DNA of 20,000 nt from an uncultured virus (IMG/VR IMGVR_UViG_3300035670_000180) (taxonomy: Duplodnaviria; Heunggongvirae; Uroviricota; Caudoviricetes), in the IMG/VR virus record IMGVR_UViG_3300035670_000180; one strand, written 5' to 3'. The notes under the pieces are model-generated. The model made no database searches. It was not told where the DNA came from and saw only the letters and a program-made list of their open reading frames with translations. A program made the position numbers and the translations under genes. Positions 1,773 to 20,000 of this stretch are shown piece by piece; within the stretch, counting starts at the first letter, position 1; each line of letters begins with the position of its first letter.

Positions 1773-1818
1773 TAAGTCATCGCCAACGGCATTGCGCCAA
1801 CCCGATAGGACGACGAAC

Positions 1819-2370
1819 ATGGCACACGCAGCAAAGCATTCCGGCACCTGCCAAGTCTGCGGCTCCAAGCAGAAGCTCCCGCGCGGAGTTCTCGCGCTCC
1901 ACGGATACACAACAGCCCTCGGCTTTTTCTCCGGCACATGCCGGGGATCGGGCCACCTGCCGCTCGAACAGAGCTGCGATCTCGCCAAGCAAGCGGTCAG
2001 CTGGACCGAGGCCCGCATCGCGCAGCTCGAGGCGCAGGTGCGCTGCCTGACCGCCCCGCCCACCGAGGCGCGCGCATGGGTGCAGATCACCAAGTACGTC
2101 GGCCGCAAGACGATCAAGAGCGCCGCGAAGGTCGAGATCGAGGTCGACGGCAACGGGCGGCCCTTCTACGTCACCTGCGGGGATCGCCCGATGCGCACTT
2201 CGGCTTTCCAGCTCGGCATGCCATCGGCCAGCGCGCTCGAGATGGCCGCGCATCTCAACCGCCAGCACGCCAACGTCGTGACGCGGGAGATCGGCATGGC
2301 CGCCGCCTACCTCGCGGACCTGCGCCGCATGATCGCTGCATGGCAGCCACGCCCGCTCATCGCAGCCTGA
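1819..2370 (+). CDS. Hypothetical phage protein with probable Zn-binding N-terminus
   Basis: ATG 1819 after AGGA; TCQVCG...ALHGY...GTCRGS gives a CxxC/H/C ligand pattern; coding-like codon usage. Confidence 0.75.
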   Translation: MAHAAKHSGTCQVCGSKQKLPRGVLALHGYTTALGFFSGTCRGSGHLPLEQSCDLAKQAVSWTEARIAQLEAQVRCLTAPPTEARAWVQITKYVGRKTIKSAAKVEIEVDGNGRPFYVTCGDRPMRTSAFQLGMPSASALEMAAHLNRQHANVVTREIGMAAAYLADLRRMIAAWQPRPLIAA

Positions 2371-2426
2371 TCTCAACGGAGGCGGCCTCAGCGCCGCCTT
2401 CCCAGCCCAATTAGGAGGACACGACG

Positions 2427-2633
2427 ATGGCTCAAGTGGCGACGAAACGCATCAAGGTCAGCAAGCAGACGCTGCACACTCTCGCCATGGCGGATCTTGT
2501 CCGGCTGCGCGCGCTGTGCAGGGCGGACGCCATCACGGCGGACCGCATCGGCGACGACACCATGTGGATGAGGACAAGATCGTGGCACGATGCGATCAGC
2601 AAGGAATTGGATCGTCGCGGGCACAATATCTGA
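2427..2633 (+). CDS. Small hypothetical protein
   Basis: Strong RBS AGGAGG at 2413-2418; 68 aa; fits between neighbouring genes. Confidence 0.7.
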   Translation: MAQVATKRIKVSKQTLHTLAMADLVRLRALCRADAITADRIGDDTMWMRTRSWHDAISKELDRRGHNI

Positions 2634-2695
2634 CGCGACCAACGGCCCGGCCCTCAACTGAGGAGCCGGGCGCAAAAACCGAGGAGGACACGGCT

Positions 2696-3034
2696 ATGGC
2701 ACGCATCAAATCATCAATCGCAGCAGCGGCAATCTTCATTGGCGGGATCGGAGCCGCCCAGGCGCAAAGCCAAAAGGCGTTTCGGGAGGCCGTCGAGGCG
2801 ATGGGCTCGCTCATTGCAGCCTCTGAGTTCTGCAGCATGCCACTTAGCCGTGAGGTCTCAACCTTTCTCGATAACCTCCCGGCATCGGCGCCAAACATGG
2901 CAGGCATCGCCAACGGCATGGAGCGGATGAGAACCCAACTTGAAAGCAACGCGCGCCGCATGGGCCGCGCCAACGCCTGCGCCGATCTTCGCCTGCGGAT
3001 GAGAAATAGCAACGTCGGCGAGCTGCTTCGCTGA
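2696..3034 (+). CDS. Small secreted/periplasmic protein
   Basis: RBS GAGGAGG at 2681; signal peptide MARIKSSIAAAAIFIGGIGAAQA; two Cys in the mature part. Confidence 0.75.
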   Translation: MARIKSSIAAAAIFIGGIGAAQAQSQKAFREAVEAMGSLIAASEFCSMPLSREVSTFLDNLPASAPNMAGIANGMERMRTQLESNARRMGRANACADLRLRMRNSNVGELLR

Positions 3035-3051
3035 TCAAGGAGGAGGACACC

Positions 3052-3606
3052 ATGACGGACGGAATTGACACGGACGAGCCCAAACGGAAGCGCAAGCGTG
3101 TGAAATGGGCGGACTACCGGCCATCCAATCTGGACCAAGCAGCCATCGACTGGACCCGGCAGAACATCAAGCGGATGGGACTCAAGAACAAGCACGTCGC
3201 TCATCACCTCGGTGTGTCGGAGCAGCGTTTCAGCAACAAGATGTGCGGCAAGAACCGTCTGAACATCATCGAGCTGCGCAAGTTGGCCGCGTTCTTCGGC
3301 GTGCCTCCGCCCAATTTTGTCAAAGAGCCGCAGACCGCCGATGTGTCGAGAGTCAGAATTATTGGGCGCATCGTCGAGCAGCCCGCACGTGAGGAGACAG
3401 CCATGACGCCAAACGAGATGAAGAGGGCCAGGGCAGCGCTGGAACTCACCCTGGACCAGATGGCCGAGATGCTCGGCTACGAGGGCACCCAGAGGCGCCA
3501 GCAGCAGTATGACCTGGAGACGGGGAAGAGGCCGATCAGAGGCTGCCAGCGGCGGCTCATTGAGGCGTATTTGGCCGGATGGCGCCCTGAGGACTGGCCC
3601 AGATAG
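3052..3606 (+). CDS. Double XRE/Cro-type helix-turn-helix protein (second domain has its own in-frame start at 3403)
   Basis: HTH1: MGLKNKHVAHHLGVSEQRFSNKMCGKNRLNIIELRKLAAFFGV. HTH2: MTPNEMKRARAALELTLDQMAEMLG...DLETGKRPI. RBS AGGAGG at 3041 and GAGGAG at 3391. Confidence 0.8.
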   Translation: MTDGIDTDEPKRKRKRVKWADYRPSNLDQAAIDWTRQNIKRMGLKNKHVAHHLGVSEQRFSNKMCGKNRLNIIELRKLAAFFGVPPPNFVKEPQTADVSRVRIIGRIVEQPAREETAMTPNEMKRARAALELTLDQMAEMLGYEGTQRRQQQYDLETGKRPIRGCQRRLIEAYLAGWRPEDWPR

Positions 3607-3636
3607 CAGCAAAGGCCGAGATCAAGACGCGGAAAC

Positions 3637-3668
3637 AGGGCGGGCAGCGGTGTCCGCCCTTTTTCTTT
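3637..3668 (+). terminator. Rho-independent terminator
   Basis: AGGGCGGGCA-GCGG-TGTCCGCCCT followed by TTTTCTTT. Confidence 0.85.
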
Positions 3669-3925
3669 GCGGATTGTGCAAAGCAAGCATCTAGTATAAA
3701 ACGCCCACATCGCGCAATAAAGTTGCGCGCAGGCCCGGGGAAGATAGAAAACCTTGCCATCGGCTCGAGATCAAACGATCCCAAAGTATTTCTACGCGAA
3801 TCAGATAGACATCGCGTGTTCTTCGGAGCACTCGAGCAGTCGTGCGCGCGTCATCTAGCAGTAAAACGACAGTATTTGCGGATACTTGCTTTGCCATTTT
3901 TGTTACTTGTTTCAAACACATAGCG

Positions 3926-3954
3926 TTGACAACGGTACGTTGCTTCGGCATGTT
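3926..3954 (+). promoter_or_regulatory. Possible promoter upstream of the late region and the omegaRNA
   Basis: Perfect -35 TTGACA (3926-3931) in an AT-richer intergenic region; weak -10 (CATGTT) at 17-nt spacing. Confidence 0.4.
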
Positions 3955-3997
3955 TTGGTCACATTCGAGAATTGTCTGCGGATACTTGCAGACGAGA

Positions 3998-4031
3998 GCG
4001 GCGGTCCCAAGGCGGGCCGCCGTTTTGCTTT
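3998..4031 (+). terminator. Terminator-like hairpin
   Basis: GCGGCGGTCC-CAAGGC-GGGCCGCCGT followed by TTTGCTTT. Confidence 0.55.
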
Positions 4032-4043
4032 GGAGGCAAAGCC

Positions 4044-4317
4044 GTAACTGATCCCCGGCCTGAAGGCCGGGGCTTTCCAGGAGGGAGACTGACTGGGAGG
4101 CCATAGTTACCAGACCCCGGCGCAAGCCGGAGCCGCACTTAGAGAGGTTAAAGACCCACCCCGCCGTGCTTCCTCAGCGGCGGGCTCTGGAAATTCCGAA
4201 AGCAGACACGCCAGGTCAGGCACGAAACGGTTCGGAATATAGCCGCTCTTTTGCAAGGTCGAGGGGAACTTTACTGGGGCCGCAAGGCCAAACTCTAAAG
4301 ACAGAAAGGAGGTCGCA
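4044..4317 (+). ncRNA. omegaRNA (HEARO-like) scaffold of IscB; guide taken from the flank just upstream (about 4024-4043)
   Basis: About 270 nt of structured non-coding DNA directly 5' of iscB. GTAACT (4044-4049) pairs with AGTTAC (4105-4110) and encloses the IS-end hairpin. Further stems: CCCGCCG-TGCTTCCTCAG-CGGCGGG and ATTCCGAA...TTCGGAAT. A GGTCGAGGGG motif lies near the 3' end. Confidence 0.85.
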
Positions 4318-5607
4318 ATGTCGGTGTTTGTTCTCGGGTCGGATAAGCGGCCTCTGATGCCGTGCTCTGAAAAGCGGGCTCGGCTTTTGTTGACGAGAAA
4401 GAGGGCGGCGGTCTTCCGGCGCTATCCGTTTACGATCATCCTCAAGGATCGGACGCAGGACGACTGCGAATTGCAGCCGGTTGAAATCAAGCTCGATCCG
4501 GGCAGCAAGGTCACTGGCATCGCCGTTGTTCGCGGCGGCGCCGGCAACAAGCCAGACACGGTGCTTTGGCTCGCCGAGTTGGCCCATCGCGGTGCGGCCA
4601 TACGCGACAAGCTGAAGGCCCGCGCAGCATTTCGTCGTCGTCGGCGCAGCAAGAACCTGCGCTATCGTCCGGCACGGTTCGATAACAGGACAAAGCCCAA
4701 GGGCTGGCTCGCGCCGTCGCTGCGGCACCGCGTCGAAACGACGATGTCTTGGGTTGAGCGCTTGCGGCGCTGGTGCCCCGTCACTGGCATCGCGCAAGAG
4801 CTTGTGCGTTTCGACATGCAAGCTATGGAAAACCCGGAGATCTCCGGCGTCGAGTATCAGCGTGGGACGCTCGCCGGAACAGAGGTCCGGGAATACCTGC
4901 TCGCAAAGTGGGGTCGCGCCTGCGCGTACTGCGGCATCGCCGACGTGCCCCTCAACATAGATCACATTGAGCCTCGCGCTCGTGGCGGATCGAACCGCGT
5001 GTCCAACCTCTGCGTTGCATGTGTCTCGTGCAATCAGAAGAAGGGCGCGCAACCGGTCGAAGTATTTCTCGCCAAGCAGCCGAAGGTGTTGGCCCGCATC
5101 AAGATCCAGGCCAAGGCGCCGCTTCGGGACGCAGCAGCCGTCAACTCGACTCGCTGGGCGTTGTTCCAGGAGATCAAGGCAACAGGACTCGCGGTGCGCT
5201 GTGGGTCTGGAGGCCGCACAAAGTGGAACCGCTCGCGGCTTGGCATCCCCAAGACGCACGCCCTGGATGCAGCCTGCGTCGGCGAGACGGATGCGCTCGC
5301 AGGATGGCAGGCCCCAGCACTTGGAATCAAATGCACCGGGCGCGGCGCGTACCAACGCACACGGCTAAATAAGTACGGCTTCCCGCGCGGGCATCTGATG
5401 CGGGGGAAGTCAGCGTTCGGTTTTCAGACCGGTGACATGGTGGTTGCCGATGTTGCGCGCGGAAAGAACTCCGGTCGCCATGTCGGTCGCGTTGCGATCC
5501 GCGCGAGCGGTTCGTTCAACATACAGACGCCGACGGGCGTCGTGCAGAATGTTTCTTGGAAGCACTGCACCACTATCGCTCGTGGCGATGGCTACAGTTT
5601 CTCGTAG
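4318..5607 (+). CDS. iscB: RNA-guided endonuclease IscB (PLMP, split RuvC, HNH)
   Basis: N-terminal RPLMPC; RuvC-I KLDPGSKVTG; Arg-rich bridge helix RRRRRSKNLRYRPARFDNR; RuvC-II ELVRFD; HNH CAYCG..IDHIEPRARGGSNRVSNLCVACVSCNQKK; RuvC-III KTHALDAAC. RBS AAGGAGG. Confidence 0.97.
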   Translation: MSVFVLGSDKRPLMPCSEKRARLLLTRKRAAVFRRYPFTIILKDRTQDDCELQPVEIKLDPGSKVTGIAVVRGGAGNKPDTVLWLAELAHRGAAIRDKLKARAAFRRRRRSKNLRYRPARFDNRTKPKGWLAPSLRHRVETTMSWVERLRRWCPVTGIAQELVRFDMQAMENPEISGVEYQRGTLAGTEVREYLLAKWGRACAYCGIADVPLNIDHIEPRARGGSNRVSNLCVACVSCNQKKGAQPVEVFLAKQPKVLARIKIQAKAPLRDAAAVNSTRWALFQEIKATGLAVRCGSGGRTKWNRSRLGIPKTHALDAACVGETDALAGWQAPALGIKCTGRGAYQRTRLNKYGFPRGHLMRGKSAFGFQTGDMVVADVARGKNSGRHVGRVAIRASGSFNIQTPTGVVQNVSWKHCTTIARGDGYSFS

Positions 5608-5690
5608 TCTCGGCGGGTAAAGCCCGCGCTCGATGCGAGAACTCCTATCCCGCCCCGGCCTGAAGGCCGGGGTAACCCGGAGAAAAGTTG

Positions 5691-5837
5691 ATGTCGTGCT
5701 CGGGATGCTCGAAGCGCAAGCAAGCCCTCGCAGGTGCCCGCACCGCCCAACAGGCGATCAAGCGGGCGGCGGTCGTCGCCAAGCACGCCGCGCGAGACCT
5801 CCGTAGGACCGTGCTGCCCTCCAGACGAGGGAGATAA
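5691..5837 (+). CDS. Small basic CxxC phage protein, 48 aa (not in the ORF track)
   Basis: MSCSGCSKRKQALAGARTAQQAIKRAAVVAKHAARDLRRTVLPSRRGR*. GGAG lies 8 nt upstream, inside the IS end. The ORF fills the gap before the gene at 5856. Confidence 0.65.
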   Translation: MSCSGCSKRKQALAGARTAQQAIKRAAVVAKHAARDLRRTVLPSRRGR

Positions 5838-5855
5838 ATAGATCGGAGCGGGACC

Positions 5856-6482
5856 ATGGCCGGGTACAATGTCGCCATCGACGTGAAGCTGGACCTGCAA
5901 CCCCTCGCTAACGCGTTGGCCGACCTACCCAAAGAGGCGATGGACAAGCGCATCGCCTGGGGGCTCAACAAGGCAATCCGCAAATTCGGCTCGGCGGCCC
6001 ATCGCCAGCTCAAGACCGACACCAAGATGGTCCGGGGCGTGTCCCGGCTCAAGCGGGGCGTCAGCTATCGCAACGCCAGCGCCGGGAACCTTGAGGCCAC
6101 GTATCGCATCCGCGACAAGAATCTCCCGATCACGAAGGCCTACTTCAAGGCGTCGTACTCCAACTTCGGACGTGCTGGTGCAATGGCGCGCAACGGCGGC
6201 ACCGCAACGCCCGCTGGTGCCAGCTGGCTATCCTGGGACGCCAATCGTCTCGGGCGGCGCACGTTCCAGATCAAGGGCAAGAAGCCGGTATTCATCAGGC
6301 TCCGCAGCAACGGCGGCAAGAAGGTCGAGACGGTGCGCGGCCCGAACCCGGCCGAGATGCTCCGGCTCTACAGCGCCCCATACGAGGCAGCCCTGCAAGC
6401 CGAAGGGCAGGAGCAGGTGCGCAGACAGATCGAGGCGTACCGCAAGGCCGAGGCCACAGTGAAGGCGCGCTACGGTCTATAA
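5856..6482 (+). CDS. Phage protein, lambda gpZ (minor tail/tail completion)-like
   Basis: Basic 208-aa protein with 'IAWGLNKA' helix and 'TFQIKG..PVFIR..VETVRGP' C-terminus as seen in gpZ-like proteins; RBS GGAG. Confidence 0.55.
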   Translation: MAGYNVAIDVKLDLQPLANALADLPKEAMDKRIAWGLNKAIRKFGSAAHRQLKTDTKMVRGVSRLKRGVSYRNASAGNLEATYRIRDKNLPITKAYFKASYSNFGRAGAMARNGGTATPAGASWLSWDANRLGRRTFQIKGKKPVFIRLRSNGGKKVETVRGPNPAEMLRLYSAPYEAALQAEGQEQVRRQIEAYRKAEATVKARYGL

Positions 6483-6497
6483 CATCGAGGCCCGCCC

Positions 6498-6758
6498 ATG
6501 CGCCCATGCCGCTCCTGCGAGTACTGCATCCCCGCAATCCTCGGGCCAACGGATGATCGATGCGCATTCGATCATCGCAACGGCGTTGTGCCGCCCACCG
6601 CCGCCTATCCCACGACCGAGTGGATGAGATCGCCAGCAGCACCATGCGGGCCATCGGCAAGGGCGCATCGCCCGATAGTGGCGCATAGCATTGGCGCCGC
6701 CCATGAAGCGATGCACGTCGCCCAGACAGGGCGCACGGGGCCACTCGTAGTCGCATGA
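6498..6758 (+). CDS. Small Cys-rich hypothetical phage protein
   Basis: CRSCEYC...RC...R...CGP pattern; GAGG upstream. Confidence 0.6.
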   Translation: MRPCRSCEYCIPAILGPTDDRCAFDHRNGVVPPTAAYPTTEWMRSPAAPCGPSARAHRPIVAHSIGAAHEAMHVAQTGRTGPLVVA

Positions 6759-6866
6759 TGCGCATTGCTCGCCCATAGGAAGGCGCAGACAGGGGCTTCG
6801 TGACGTAGCTATGGGTGCCTATGGGGCCCCTAATGAGGCCGCCAGCGGGCCGCCATGAGCGAACCA

Positions 6867-6915
6867 GGGTCCTCTGCCAAGGGGTGCCATATGGCGCGGC
6901 GAAACCCAGCCCCGC
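6867..6915 (+). other. Candidate cos site (cosQ-like heptamer plus cosN-like sequence)
   Basis: GGGTCCT (6867-6873) is identical to lambda cosQ. It is followed 20 nt later by GCGCGGCGAAAC (8/12 identity to the lambda cohesive end GGGCGGCGACCT), in non-coding DNA upstream of the packaging genes. Confidence 0.45.
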
Positions 6916-8971: not shown

Positions 8972-9937
8972 ATGAACATGCTGAAACGCGGCGTCCTCGC
9001 CGTGCTGATCTCCCTTGCCTGCGCGCTGCCCGTATCGGCGGCCGATGTCGGCGGCAGCTGCTGTGCCGATCTCGAAGAGCGGGTGAAGGAGATGGAGGCC
9101 ACGGTTGCGACCAAGGGCAATCGCAAGGTCTCGGTGACGATCTCGGGCCAAGTGTCCAAGTCGCTTCTCTGGATCGATGGCGATGATGCTGTGATCGGCG
9201 ACAACGCCAACAGCCCGAGCCGGGTCCGTGTCGACGGCAAGGCCAAGGTCAATGCCGATGTCGAGGCGGGCTACGTGTTCGAGATGAACGCCGACGCCCT
9301 GACGCTGCGGCATTCGTTCGTCTACCTCAAGACGGCAATCGGCAAGGTCAGCCTCGGGCATACGTCGACGGCAACGGATGGCGTGAGCGAGGTATCGCTC
9401 GCCAACACGAACGTCGCGAACCTGCCGAGCAACATCTACGGCGGCATCGTCGATGGACCGCGCCGGAACCTGATCCGCTACGATAGCCCGACTATTGCGG
9501 GGTTCTACGCCTCCGCCTCATGGGCGAGCGAGGATGAGTGGGACGCGGCGCTGCGATACGCGAGCGAGCTGGGCGAGTTCCGGCTGGCGGGTGCTGTCGG
9601 GTACGCGACCGACTTCGGCCTCGAGCGCTTGTCGGGGTCTGGCAGCGTGATGCACGTCCCGTCCGGCGTATTTCTCAACGGCATCTATGGTCGCGTCGAT
9701 GATGCTGACGCTACGGCGTGGCATCTGACGGGCGGTGTTGAGCGCAAGCTGTCCGAGATTGGCGCGACGACGCTGTTTGCTGAGTACGGCAAGCTCGACG
9801 TGCTTGGCGTTTCCGGCGACGGCTTCGGCCTCGGGATCGTCCAGGCGGTCGACGCGGCGTCAATGGACCTGTTCGCGGCGTATCGCGACATCGACGATGT
9901 GTCGGTCATCCACGCGGGTGCCCGCATCAAGTTTTGA
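8972..9937 (+). CDS. Outer-membrane porin (alphaproteobacterial type)
   Basis: Signal peptide; AADVGGSCCADLEERVKEMEATVATKGNRKVSVTISGQV N-terminus as recalled for Hyphomicrobium-type porins; IRYDSPTIAGF motif; amphipathic beta strands; terminal Phe (GARIKF). Confidence 0.9.
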   Translation: MNMLKRGVLAVLISLACALPVSAADVGGSCCADLEERVKEMEATVATKGNRKVSVTISGQVSKSLLWIDGDDAVIGDNANSPSRVRVDGKAKVNADVEAGYVFEMNADALTLRHSFVYLKTAIGKVSLGHTSTATDGVSEVSLANTNVANLPSNIYGGIVDGPRRNLIRYDSPTIAGFYASASWASEDEWDAALRYASELGEFRLAGAVGYATDFGLERLSGSGSVMHVPSGVFLNGIYGRVDDADATAWHLTGGVERKLSEIGATTLFAEYGKLDVLGVSGDGFGLGIVQAVDAASMDLFAAYRDIDDVSVIHAGARIKF

Positions 9938-18538: not shown

Positions 18539-20000
18539 ATGCCCATTACCGCGCTCCCCGTCCCGACCAAGACCATCCCGCAGGTCGCCACAGAGATCAT
18601 CTCCGCCATTGATGGCGTTCTCGGCACCGCGTGGCATTCGAGCCTGCAATCGGCCAATTTCAACTCCGTTTCCCGCGTGCTGACGCTCAACATGAGCGAT
18701 GGCCGCTTGATTACGGTGGCGATCCCAGGCGCCACAGATACACTCACCACGCTCGCCTACAATTCGGTAACGCGCATCCTCACATACACGGGCGAGAATG
18801 GCCTCGCGACAGCGATTGACCTGTCGAACCTCGCCACCGATGTGTACGTGACGGGCGGCACGTATGATGCCGCCACGATGCGCCTGACCCTCACCGACAA
18901 CAACGGCACGACGCCGAACATCGTCATCGACTTCTCGGGCATGGTCGTCACGCTGCTCGACAACGGCGACGGCACCTATTCGCTCGGCGATGGCCGGGGA
19001 CCGACGTCCATTGGCATCATCAACGTCGGCAACGAGGTTGTTGTCGCGAATGCCGATCTCACCGGCGCCGCACCTGCTGGCGCCGAGCTTGGCGTTAACC
19101 GTGTGTCCGGGCAGACCTTTTTCGCTGATGGTTCGGGCAATTGGCAGCCCGTGCCGGGCTCCGGCGAGTTCGAGGTCGTTCGCGCCGCTGGCGCTCTGAC
19201 GGGCGCTGCGCCTGCTGGTGCGGAGGTCGGCGTCGATACGACAACCGGCCAGATGTACTATGTCGATGGTTCGGGGAACTGGCAGCCGGTCCCGATTGCA
19301 TCGGTCGATCTCAACACGACAGTTTCGTCTCAGGCAGGCTCCATCTATCCCGGCACGCCCATCGCTGCGCCCGCTGGCTCTGCCGCTGGCGACGTGCATG
19401 TGGAGACCTACGATGATTTCATCGCGTGGTACGTGTCGGACGGCGTCGGCGGCTGGACTGTGTCTGCAACGTCCCCTGTCGGCGTTGCGAACGAGTTCGA
19501 GGTTGTGTCCAGCGCTGGCGCTCTGACCGGTGCGGCCCCTGCTGGCGCTGAGCTTGGCGTGGATACCGGGCTCGGCCAGCTCTACTACGTGGACGGGTCC
19601 GGCAATTGGCAGCCCGTCCCGGCCGTAGTCGAATCCGAAGTCGTGAGAGATGCTGTCGACCTTGCGGGCGTAGCCCCTGCTGGCGCCGAGTGGGGCATCA
19701 ACACCACGAGCGGCAAGCAGTTCTTCGTGGACGCAGCCGGAAACTGGATCGCTGCCCCGGCGAGCGAGCTTGAAGTCATCCGCAATGCGGGCGCGCTCTC
19801 TGGCGCTGCACCTGCTGGCGCCGAGGTCGGCGTCGATGGGACAACCGGCAAGCTGTACTACGTGGACGGTTCTGGCAATTGGCAGCCCGTCCAGGCGGCG
19901 GCTGAAGCTGAGGTGGTGAGATCGCCTGCCGATCTCTCCGGCGCGGCTCCATCTGGCGCCGAGTGGGGCATCAACACGACGAGCGGCAAGCAGTTCTTCG
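18539..20000 (+). CDS. Large repeat-rich fibre/adhesin-like protein, partial (>487 aa; not in the ORF track)
   Basis: Hand translation from ATG 18539 (GAGG upstream) gives MPITALPVPTKTIPQVATEII..., open to the window end. Beta-rich N-terminal repeats are followed by 45-46-aa tandem repeats. Confidence 0.9.
   Translation, partial: MPITALPVPTKTIPQVATEIISAIDGVLGTAWHSSLQSANFNSVSRVLTLNMSDGRLITVAIPGATDTLTTLAYNSVTRILTYTGENGLATAIDLSNLATDVYVTGGTYDAATMRLTLTDNNGTTPNIVIDFSGMVVTLLDNGDGTYSLGDGRGPTSIGIINVGNEVVVANADLTGAAPAGAELGVNRVSGQTFFADGSGNWQPVPGSGEFEVVRAAGALTGAAPAGAEVGVDTTTGQMYYVDGSGNWQPVPIASVDLNTTVSSQAGSIYPGTPIAAPAGSAAGDVHVETYDDFIAWYVSDGVGGWTVSATSPVGVANEFEVVSSAGALTGAAPAGAELGVDTGLGQLYYVDGSGNWQPVPAVVESEVVRDAVDLAGVAPAGAEWGINTTSGKQFFVDAAGNWIAAPASELEVIRNAGALSGAAPAGAEVGVDGTTGKLYYVDGSGNWQPVQAAAEAEVVRSPADLSGAAPSGAEWGINTTSGKQFF
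19034..20000 (+). repeat. Coding tandem repeats, 135-138-bp unit
   Basis: Units start at 19034, 19172, 19499, 19637, 19772 and 19910; consensus EVVR..GALTGAAPAGAE.G.DTT.G..YYVDGSGNWQPVP. Confidence 0.9.

What the first reader, a model, noticed from the sequence alone, without database searches (positions are those of the whole stretch)
4024..5837. IscB element inserted exactly between the RBS and start codon of a phage gene, and supplies a replacement RBS
Seen: removing 4044-5690 gives ...GGAGG-CAAAGCC|ATG TCG TGC..., a perfect Shine-Dalgarno with 7-nt spacing in front of a 48-aa ORF (5691-5837). The element's last bases (GGAG-AAAAGTTG) recreate an RBS 8 nt before the same ATG. Known: IscB takes its guide from the 5' flank and needs a 3' TAM at the other junction; ATGA is the TAM of A. 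warmingii IscB. Inference: the TAM here (ATGT...) is the start codon itself, so the element can target translation starts and stay nearly neutral by carrying its own SD.
Basis: partly seen in the sequence, partly recalled or inferred. Interest (0 to 1): 0.85.

Follow-up and report, generated by a model that had tools for sequence, protein, structure and literature searches.

The report
IscB transposon parked at a start codon
A small transposon that carries an RNA-guided nuclease sits exactly between a phage gene's ribosome-binding site and its start codon, and its relatives in many bacteria sit in the same kind of place, so these elements appear to use start codons as landing sites.

Summary
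Window 4044-5690 is a 1,647-bp non-autonomous IscB (ISC, IS200/IS605-type) element. It holds a full-length HEARO/omegaRNA match starting at 4044, an intact 429-aa iscB, and the same 20-nt hairpin near both ends. It lies between GGAGG-CAAAGCC and the ATG of a 48-aa ORF in a phage operon leader.

A 1,659-nt contig from another study covers 4044-5695 at about 97% identity. One distant homologue of the ORF aligns from the same Met.

The start-codon reading generalises. In 42 independent ATGN insertions of related elements, 35 ATGs open an ORF of 48 aa or more. Twenty-two of these are anchored at a Pfam N-terminus and one is internal. A second sample gave 10 of 12, including obg and lepB. SD-like cores lie 4-12 nt before the left junction in 14 of 29 sites, against 50 of 540 control sites.

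N|ATGA as the ISC target is already published (Kapitonov 2016). I found no paper linking it to start codons.

The "replacement RBS" is only partly supported. GGAG with 8-nt spacing is present here and in the closest relative. SD-like tails occur in only 8 of 27 families, and function is untested. The element is a new member of a known kind.

The parts
3995..4026 (+). Terminator-like 13-bp hairpin in the operon leader, followed by a T-run. It lies just upstream of the presumed guide.
   Evidence: Fold of 3990-4043: -30.3 kcal/mol, z -4.2, 0 of 200 shuffles as good. The consensus terminator scan did not list it.
4027..4042 (+). Small hairpin GCTTTG-GAGG-CAAAGC that presents the native SD in its loop.
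4028..4043 (+). Last 16 nt of the 5' flank. This is the presumed guide segment of the omegaRNA and contains the native SD GGAGG (4032-4036).
   Evidence: Inferred from the published IscB rule that the guide lies 5' of the scaffold (Meers preprint). Position read. The 16-nt length is assumed.
4044..5690 (+). The mobile element: a non-autonomous ISC/IscB element of 1,647 bp.
   Evidence: It is single copy in the phage record. No TnpA was found in G001 or G002.
4044..4274 (+). omegaRNA scaffold (HEARO RF02033 match). The RNA probably runs on to the iscB SD near 4312.
   Evidence: 73.9 bits, E 1.7e-14, model positions 1-211 of 211, below the gathering score of 83.
4053..4072 (+). Subterminal hairpin CCCCGGCCTGAAGGCCGGGG at the omegaRNA end. 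This is the transposon RE in TnpA terms.
   Evidence: D7, 100% identical to 5653-5672. Orientation from Meers.
4318..5607 (+). iscB, 429 aa, with its own SD GGAGG at 4308-4312.
   Evidence: Pfam RRXRR 2.5e-74 and HNH 2.6e-11. PDB IscB chains match, for example 7utn at 2.6e-27. Aligned 1-429 to relatives.
5653..5672 (+). Second copy of the 20-nt hairpin, at the end next to the TAM.
5673..5690 (+). 18-nt tail of the element, TAACCCGGAGAAAAGTTG. It holds GGAG (5679-5682) 8 nt before the ATG and is the candidate replacement SD.
   Evidence: In the fold of 5640-5730 the GGAG pairs with CUCC at 5642-5645, while the spacer and the AUG are unpaired.
5691..5694 (+). ATGT: the TAM and TnpA target position, and also the start codon plus one base.
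   Evidence: Homologous position is ATGA in 38 of 42 relatives. Copies in X5 and X7 align through 5695.
5691..5837 (+). 48-aa ORF, the first gene of the operon that continues with Minor_tail_Z-like, methylase, porin, terminase, portal and capsid genes.
   Evidence: One homologue, P0001, at E 2.1e-7, aligned from its Met29 MSCGGCSKR to the shared C-terminal end VLPSRRG(K/R).

Best explanation
Window 4044-5690 is a non-autonomous IS200/IS605-type ISC element carrying omegaRNA plus iscB. A Y1 transposase (TnpA) supplied in trans inserted it immediately 5' of an ATGN target, the published N|ATGA rule. Here that ATG is the start codon of a small phage ORF, 7 nt downstream of its SD.

Because the IscB guide is whatever lies 5' of the scaffold, the guide is the gene's ribosome-binding region and the TAM is its start codon.

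This placement is typical of the ATGA-type family. I infer three reasons for it, none tested.
- The guide lies outside the element, so it can only be transcribed from a host promoter. Sense insertions inside 5' leaders are therefore the ones that yield a working omegaRNA and are kept by cut-and-copy.
- The coding sequence stays whole.
- An SD plus an ATG cannot easily mutate away.

In this phage the element would be transcribed with the operon it heads. It could home into element-free relatives during co-infection. The GGAG in its 18-nt tail may restore an SD for the displaced start codon.
For: Identity of the element. Boundaries.

Family-wide pattern, first sample: 47 independent insertion events, 42 with ATGN (38 ATGA, 2 ATGT, 2 ATGG). 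In 35 of the 42 the ATG opens an ORF of 48 aa or more, against 331 of 822 other ATGA sites in the same flanks (p 2.8e-8).

Of the 34 such ORFs outside the window, 25 have Pfam hits. Twenty-two are anchored at profile positions up to 23 near the N-terminus (PRAI, Exo_endo_phos, F420_oxidored, Acyl-CoA_dh_N, MFS_1, Cpn10 and others). Two are compatible by length and one is internal.

Second sample, drawn afterwards from 401 genomes: 12 new events, 10 with an ORF of 48 aa or more. Seven have Pfam hits, all starting at profile position 1-2, including GTP1_OBG and Peptidase_S26.

SD core 4-12 nt before the left junction: 14 of 29, against 50 of 540 controls (p 2.7e-7).

L009 shows AAGGAGACAGGT|ATGA uninterrupted at the exact point where L016's element begins.

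Published: N|ATGA verified with empty sites (PMC4810608, passages). The omegaRNA is bounded by the transposon RE, the GstIscB TAM is TTCAT on the TnpA strand, and there is an orientation bias with the upstream gene (Meers preprint, passages).

ORF reality: P0001.
Against: No empty allele of this site was recovered.

The fourth TAM base here is T, not the family's A. The TAM of this IscB is unmeasured.

Only one homologue of the 48-aa ORF exists and its DNA was not seen.

Seven of 42 and 2 of 12 ATGN insertions open only short ORFs. One is inside a gene (L049). Some long ORFs without a Pfam hit may be spurious in GC-rich DNA, for example L029.

A stricter start-like test gave only 9 of 29, against 34 of 540.

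The K. racemifer GTGA-type copies show no such pattern (0 of 4 with 48 aa or more).

The three reasons given for the bias are inference. A rough estimate of my own suggests that selection for non-disruptive, sense-transcribed ATGA sites alone might give a majority at start codons.

No promoter was found by the consensus scan.
Confidence: 0.8

Rival explanations
1. The start-codon association is pure survivorship with no specialisation. TnpA inserts at any ATGA, copies inside genes are purged, and what remains is enriched for start codons because ATGA is scarce elsewhere in non-coding DNA. The GGAG in the tail is incidental or serves TnpA.
For: Nothing is known in TnpA or IscB that recognises translation signals. 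The target is only 4 nt. Tails with an SD core occur in just 8 of 27 families, p 0.035 for the 6 of 27 where all members have one. The conserved CCCGCGCAA tail of most families has no SD. One insertion is inside a gene (L049).
Against: Insertions sit in front of genes that are essential in model bacteria (obg, lepB) and of trpF, proC, nadE and hisE-like genes. Initiation must therefore survive separation from the native SD, which suggests the tail is not neutral sequence. The window and its closest relative L020 share GGAG at the same 8-nt spacing. The size of the enrichment was not compared with a proper intergenic null.
Confidence: 0.35
2. The 48-aa ORF is not a gene. The element simply landed at an ATGT in a non-coding leader behind a terminator, and the SD spacing is coincidence.
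For: No Pfam family. No word-based homologue. Only one hit among 1.84 billion representatives. The ORF is GC-rich and basic.
Against: P0001 aligns from its internal Met29 with MSC-GCSKR and ends at the same VLPSRRG(K/R) stop. GGAGG lies 7 nt upstream, presented in a hairpin loop. The next gene starts 19 nt after the ORF's stop. The relatives' pattern makes a true start likely.
Confidence: 0.15
3. The element's true right end lies at about 5695-5699, so ATGTC belongs to the element, which would then supply a new start codon to the ORF.
For: Copies in X5 and X7 stay identical to the window through 5695, and the X5 contig runs 4 letters further. Comparing copies cannot separate a conserved target from the element's end, the same difficulty noted in PMC4810608.
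Against: P0001 keeps Met-Ser-Cys at its aligned start, while its 28 in-frame upstream codons are open. The window's tail has an in-frame TAA six codons before the ATG. In relatives, empty sites showed ATGA to be target DNA. L009 shows an unoccupied ...GGT|ATGA site.
Confidence: 0.05

Closest known systems
ISC2 transposons with an N|ATGA target (ISC2-1_HM, ISC2-1_MS, ISC1-1_MA; Kapitonov et al. 2016, PMC4810608, passages read)
   Same: Single iscB gene, no TnpA, subterminal hairpins, 5'-GT... start, no target duplication, insertion immediately 5' of ATGN.
   Different: Fourth target base is T here. The host is a phage. That paper does not mention start codons (0 occurrences). The link to SD and start codon is shown here.
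[quoted passage not shown]
   Same: The omegaRNA lies upstream of iscB and is bounded by the transposon RE. The guide comes from the flank. The TAM equals the TnpA target (TTCAT, which is ATGAA on the IscB strand). Co-orientation with the upstream gene is reported.
   Different: Activity was not tested here. They report orientation bias only, not coincidence with start codons.
Homing endonuclease genes and mobile introns of phages
   Same: A nuclease-bearing selfish insert at a conserved, functionally constrained site that leaves the host gene usable. Spread by cleavage of the empty allele during co-infection is expected.
   Different: No splicing. Target recognition is by RNA guide plus TAM. 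Insertion is by a transposase. Homing by this element is inferred, not shown.
IS607-family TnpB elements whose TAMs are AGGAG or GAGGG (stated in review PMC13565253, passage read)
   Same: Another OMEGA lineage whose adjacent motif looks like a translation signal.
   Different: Different transposase (serine recombinase) and a different nuclease. No analysis was made here.

Membership tests
IscB (OMEGA RNA-guided nuclease) | N-terminal RRXRR / RuvC-I plus bridge-helix region | tested here: met
   PF14239, residues 3-183, profile 1-174 of 174, E 2.5e-74.
IscB (OMEGA RNA-guided nuclease) | HNH domain inserted in RuvC | tested here: met
   PF01844, residues 202-244, E 2.6e-11. DHIEP...NL...C..CN..KG aligned to TbaIscB.
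IscB (OMEGA RNA-guided nuclease) | Sequence similarity to IscB proteins of solved structure | tested here: met
   9k30 1.3e-42, 7utn 2.6e-27, 7xht 3e-27. Individual catalytic residues were not checked one by one.
IscB (OMEGA RNA-guided nuclease) | omegaRNA (HEARO) directly upstream on the same strand | tested here: met
   RF02033 at 4044-4274, full model, E 1.7e-14, but 73.9 bits is below the gathering score of 83.
IscB (OMEGA RNA-guided nuclease) | RNA-guided, TAM-dependent DNA cleavage | not testable with these tools
   Needs a biochemical or plasmid-interference assay.
ISC / IS200-IS605 non-autonomous transposon | Subterminal hairpins at both ends and no terminal inverted repeats | tested here: met
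   Identical 20-nt hairpin at 4053-4072 and 5653-5672.
ISC / IS200-IS605 non-autonomous transposon | Insertion 5' of a 4-nt target (N|ATGA) without target duplication | tested here: inconclusive
   The position holds ATGT, a 3-of-4 match. No duplication is seen. Copies elsewhere share ATGTC. No empty site was found for this locus.
ISC / IS200-IS605 non-autonomous transposon | Presence in more than one genomic context (mobility) | tested here: met
   The X5 contig covers just the element at about 97% identity. X7 record 20 leaves the window's sequence after 5695. Whether these are new sites or the same site in diverged phages is open.
ISC / IS200-IS605 non-autonomous transposon | Y1 transposase TnpA in cis (would make it autonomous) | tested here: not met
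   PF01797 was not found in G001 (19 kb) or G002 (47 kb, 92% complete). The element is therefore filed as non-autonomous.

The most novel reading that the evidence does not exclude
ATGA-type IscB elements are specialised residents of the gap between SD and start codon. Their TnpA target and TAM is the start codon and their guide is the ribosome-binding site, so host transcription supplies the guide and the target cannot mutate away. Their 16-19-nt tails have been shaped to keep the displaced start codon translatable, by an SD in some lineages such as this one and by other means in the rest. That would explain why they persist in front of genes such as obg and lepB. In phages such an element would act as an RNA-guided gene drive during co-infection.
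Probability: 0.4. Interest if true: 0.75.

Novelty: new member of a known kind. Interest (0 to 1): 0.6.

Why it matters
IscB is regarded as the ancestor of Cas9, but how its elements live in genomes is only partly understood. If the TAM is normally a start codon and the guide normally the ribosome-binding site, three things follow. It explains how a guide that lies outside the element gets transcribed. It explains why these elements are tolerated in front of essential genes. It explains why their targets stay available.

It also predicts that the short element tails carry translation-initiation signals that could be tested and reused. For phage biology, it points to an RNA-guided homing element at the head of a structural operon.

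Tried and rejected
Rfam at gathering thresholds: no match in the window. The HEARO match appears only with E-value thresholds.

The window's own assembly is not held. G001 starts at window position 6899 and lacks the region. L006 is the same insertion, 99.96% identical over window 1818-6910.

Empty-allele pattern in viral contigs: 0 matches. Megablast of 3500-6500 against phages: none.

Minor_tail_Z-like neighbour: only the same contig in viral contigs and nothing in phages by tblastn.

End patterns of the element in viral contigs: only the same contig.

Closest IscB in genome contigs is 68% identical, so there are no near copies.

48-aa ORF: no word-based homologue.

In phages there was only one weak match, E 0.3. 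Its single contig of 903 nt could not be fetched.

By eye, the left flank translated in another frame (…SGGPKAGRRFALEAK) resembles P0001's N-terminal extension (…SRGGAFRASLLFAFKEAI). BLASTP gave no alignment, so this is not used as evidence.

The consensus promoter scan found 0 sites in 3550-5900.

No RNA holder was listed among the sequencing runs.

Weinberg 2009 (PMC4140389) is not held. Weinberg 2010 does not mention HEARO. Altae-Tran 2021 was not seen. My memory that HEARO elements were reported to precede ATGA or GTGA is recall only.

Full report
**What is in the window.** ORF 4318-5607 (+) encodes a 429-aa protein with Pfam RRXRR (E 2.5e-74, full profile) and HNH. It matches solved IscB chains, for example 7utn at 2.6e-27. 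Rfam finds nothing at gathering thresholds. At E-value thresholds the HEARO model (RF02033, the RNA now called the IscB omegaRNA) matches 4044-4274 over its whole length, at 73.9 bits and E 1.7e-14, below the curated 83 bits. Model position 1 falls on 4044.

The 20-mer CCCCGGCCTGAAGGCCGGGG, itself a hairpin, occurs at 4053-4072 and at 5653-5672. No Y1 transposase is encoded in the two viral records that cover this phage (G001, and G002 at 92% complete). The element is single copy there. It is therefore a non-autonomous ISC/IS200-IS605-type element.

**The junctions.** The sequence reads ...GGAGG CAAAGCC | GTAACTGAT-hairpin ... hairpin-TAACCCGGAGAAAAGTTG | ATG TCG TGC.... The native GGAGG is 7 nt from the ATG once 4044-5690 is removed. 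The element's GGAG (5679-5682) is 8 nt from the ATG.

Three lines of evidence support these boundaries.
- The covariance model starts at 4044.
- Copies of related elements within single genomes stop being alike at GTCAAY... on the left and directly after ...TG ATGA on the right. These were four in Cupriavidus basilensis, three in a Malikia MAG, two in C. necator and three in Noviherbaspirillum. The window's tail aligns with theirs, which puts the end at 5690.
- In a seawater run of another study (X5), a 1,659-nt contig covers 4044-5695 at about 97% identity (43 differences), with only 2 and 4 further letters. In X7 a 151-nt contig matches 5619-5695 and then runs on unlike.

A contig that ends at both ends of a repeat is what an assembly graph gives for a sequence present in more than one context. 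I cannot tell whether those contexts are new sites or the same site in diverged phages.

**The displaced gene.** The 48-aa ORF has no Pfam family and no word-based homologue. A full HMMER scan of 1.84 billion representatives found one relative, P0001 (E 2.1e-7). It aligns from its Met29 (MSCGGCSKR...) to a shared C-terminal end, VLPSRRG(K/R).

P0001's 28 in-frame upstream codons are open. In the window the element's tail has an in-frame TAA six codons before the ATG. So P0001's ATG is not preceded by this tail. Its DNA could not be retrieved.

The ORF heads a same-strand run of genes: Minor_tail_Z-like, DNA methylase, porin, large terminase, portal, S49 protease, decoration protein and major capsid. 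Upstream lies a strong hairpin followed by a T-run (3995-4026). After that comes a small hairpin with GAGG in its loop.

**Does the pattern generalise?** I collected IscB loci from viral contigs (12 loci) and from one genome per species (50 loci). The following rows were dropped:
- identical duplicates (L008, L012, L014, L015);
- the window's own phage (L006, L018, L019);
- the same or an orthologous site (L016, L046, L047);
- a copy without a right end (L037);
- loci cut by contig ends (L026, L030, L059, L061, L067-L069).

That left 47 independent insertion events. Forty-two have ATGN at the position after the tail (38 ATGA, 2 ATGT, 2 ATGG) and 5 have GTGN.

In 35 of the 42 that ATG opens an ORF of 48 aa or more. 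For 80 aa or more the count is 31 of 42, and for 100 aa or more it is 29 of 42. The control was every other ATGA in the same flanks, on both strands: 331 of 822, 209 of 758 and 177 of 725. Fisher p values are 2.8e-8, 2.1e-9 and 4.8e-9. This control is lenient, because internal in-frame ATGA sites also count as open.

The sharper evidence is homology. Of the 34 ORFs outside the window, 25 have Pfam hits. In 22 the first stretch starts at profile position 23 or lower near the protein's N-terminus. Examples are PRAI 6-210 on 1-192 of 193, Exo_endo_phos 4-250 on 1-225, F420_oxidored 2-96 on 1-94, Acyl-CoA_dh_N 6-117 on 1-113, MFS_1 11-263 on 2-253 and PRA-PH 8-93 on 2-85. Two are compatible by length only (L031, L060). 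One is clearly internal (L049, YgjP-like profile positions 164-206 of 207).

Seven ATGN sites open only 3-30 codons (L009, L013, L017, L044, L053, L063, L064).

A stricter start-like criterion required 100 open codons downstream and an in-frame stop within 25 codons upstream. It gave 9 of 29 against 34 of 540 (p 1.1e-4). It is too harsh for GC-rich DNA.

An SD core (GGAG, GAGG or AGGA) ending 4-12 nt before the left junction is present in 14 of 29 sites, against 50 of 540 control sites (p 2.7e-7).

**Replication.** After forming this view I drew a fresh sample: RRXRR matches in 401 genomes of one order, of which 8 genomes were positive. It gave 12 new events with a recognisable tail followed by ATGN. 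Ten open an ORF of 48 aa or more. Seven of these have Pfam hits, all starting at profile position 1-2: GTP1_OBG 4-158 on 1-155, Epimerase, HMA, Flavodoxin_3, Peptidase_S26, AI-2E_transport and HAD. Two are short. Obg and signal peptidase I are essential in model bacteria (my own knowledge). The displaced start codons must therefore still work.

**A natural near-empty site.** L009 and L016 are two viral contigs with 100%-identical flanks but elements only 82% identical. L016's element begins directly after ...AAGGAGACAGGT. In L009 the same bases are followed, uninterrupted, by ATGAACG... (SD, 6 nt, ATGA). L009's own element sits 204 nt further on, at a second ATGA.

**The replacement RBS.** Grouping tails into 27 families, an SD core ending 4-12 nt before the ATG occurs in at least one member of 8 families and in all members of 6. 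Against the 9.3% control rate the binomial p is 0.035. The window and its closest relative (L020, 68% protein identity) both have GGAG with 8-nt spacing. L044, L048, L051/L052, L053 and L041 have their own versions.

The commonest families end ...CCCGCGCAA..TG with no SD, and these include the copies before obg and lepB. So an element-borne SD is plausible for this lineage, is not a family trait, and is untested.

**Literature.**
- Kapitonov et al. 2016 (PMC4810608, passages read) established N|ATGA for proteobacterial and cyanobacterial ISC elements using empty sites. The words "start codon" do not occur in that paper.
- The Meers et al. preprint (passages read) shows that the omegaRNA is bounded by the transposon RE, that the GstIscB TAM is TTCAT on the TnpA strand, and that iscB is co-oriented with the upstream gene. 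"Start codon" occurs once, as a figure axis.
- The IsrB structure paper (PMC9581776, passages) reports NTGA/TTGA TAMs and an SD only for isrB itself.
- Full-text searches found no paper that links the TAM to start codons. The term sets were: IscB + start codon + TAM; IscB + Shine-Dalgarno; IscB + ATGA; IS605 + start codon + TnpA + target site; IscB + downstream gene; and transposon-adjacent motif + start codon.
- Weinberg 2009 and Altae-Tran 2021 could not be read here, so prior mention there cannot be excluded.

**Verdict.** The element is an ordinary IscB transposon of a known family with a known target rule. The reading extends to most ATGA-type relatives examined, which I did not find in print. 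Why the bias exists, and whether the GGAG works, remain inference.

Noticed in passing
L009:2006-2209 and L016:2219: Two viral contigs share 100%-identical flanks but carry IscB elements only 82% identical. L016's element starts at an SD-ATGA site that is unoccupied in L009. L016 lacks the 204 nt between that site and the second ATGA where L009's element sits. This suggests two insertions followed by recombination, or a replacement.
   Followed up: partly
run X5, record 12 (laid on window 5653-5695): A 57-nt contig reads CAGTAACTGAT + hairpin + the element's tail up to 5695. That is the element's first 9 nt joined through the hairpin to its last 18 nt. It may be a miniature (PATE-like) derivative or an assembly artefact at the palindrome.
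   Followed up: no
window 3877-3889 and 3977-3989: Exact 13-mer TGCGGATACTTGC repeated 100 nt apart in the leader, upstream of the terminator-like hairpin. It may be a regulator binding site. TTGACA lies at about 3925.
   Followed up: no
window 8972-9937: A Gram-negative porin gene (Porin_4, E 6.7e-21) sits between the phage methylase and the large terminase. It is a likely moron and a hint to the host.
   Followed up: no
window 18539-19999: An open-ended ORF with a weak Mtd_N match (major tropism determinant N-terminal domain, E 1.1e-6). This could point to a diversity-generating retroelement target further on.
   Followed up: no
L051:2831 and L052:2832: Two copies of a more distant IscB family, 80% identical to each other, end ...TTTTAGGAG(7-8 nt)|ATGA or ATGT. 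They carry a strong AGGAG in the tail. L052 shares the window's ATGT.
   Followed up: partly
L020:1156-1500: The closest relative of the window's IscB (68%) lacks the first part of the omegaRNA (no GTCAA-hairpin start). It sits between an HTH-like ORF end and a HicA_toxin-family ORF, so this copy is probably decayed.
   Followed up: no
L081-L091 (genome G219): One genome holds 8 RRXRR matches. In these copies the iscB reading frame runs into the end hairpin and stops at the TGA of its loop. Two copies are broken (L087, L090).
   Followed up: partly
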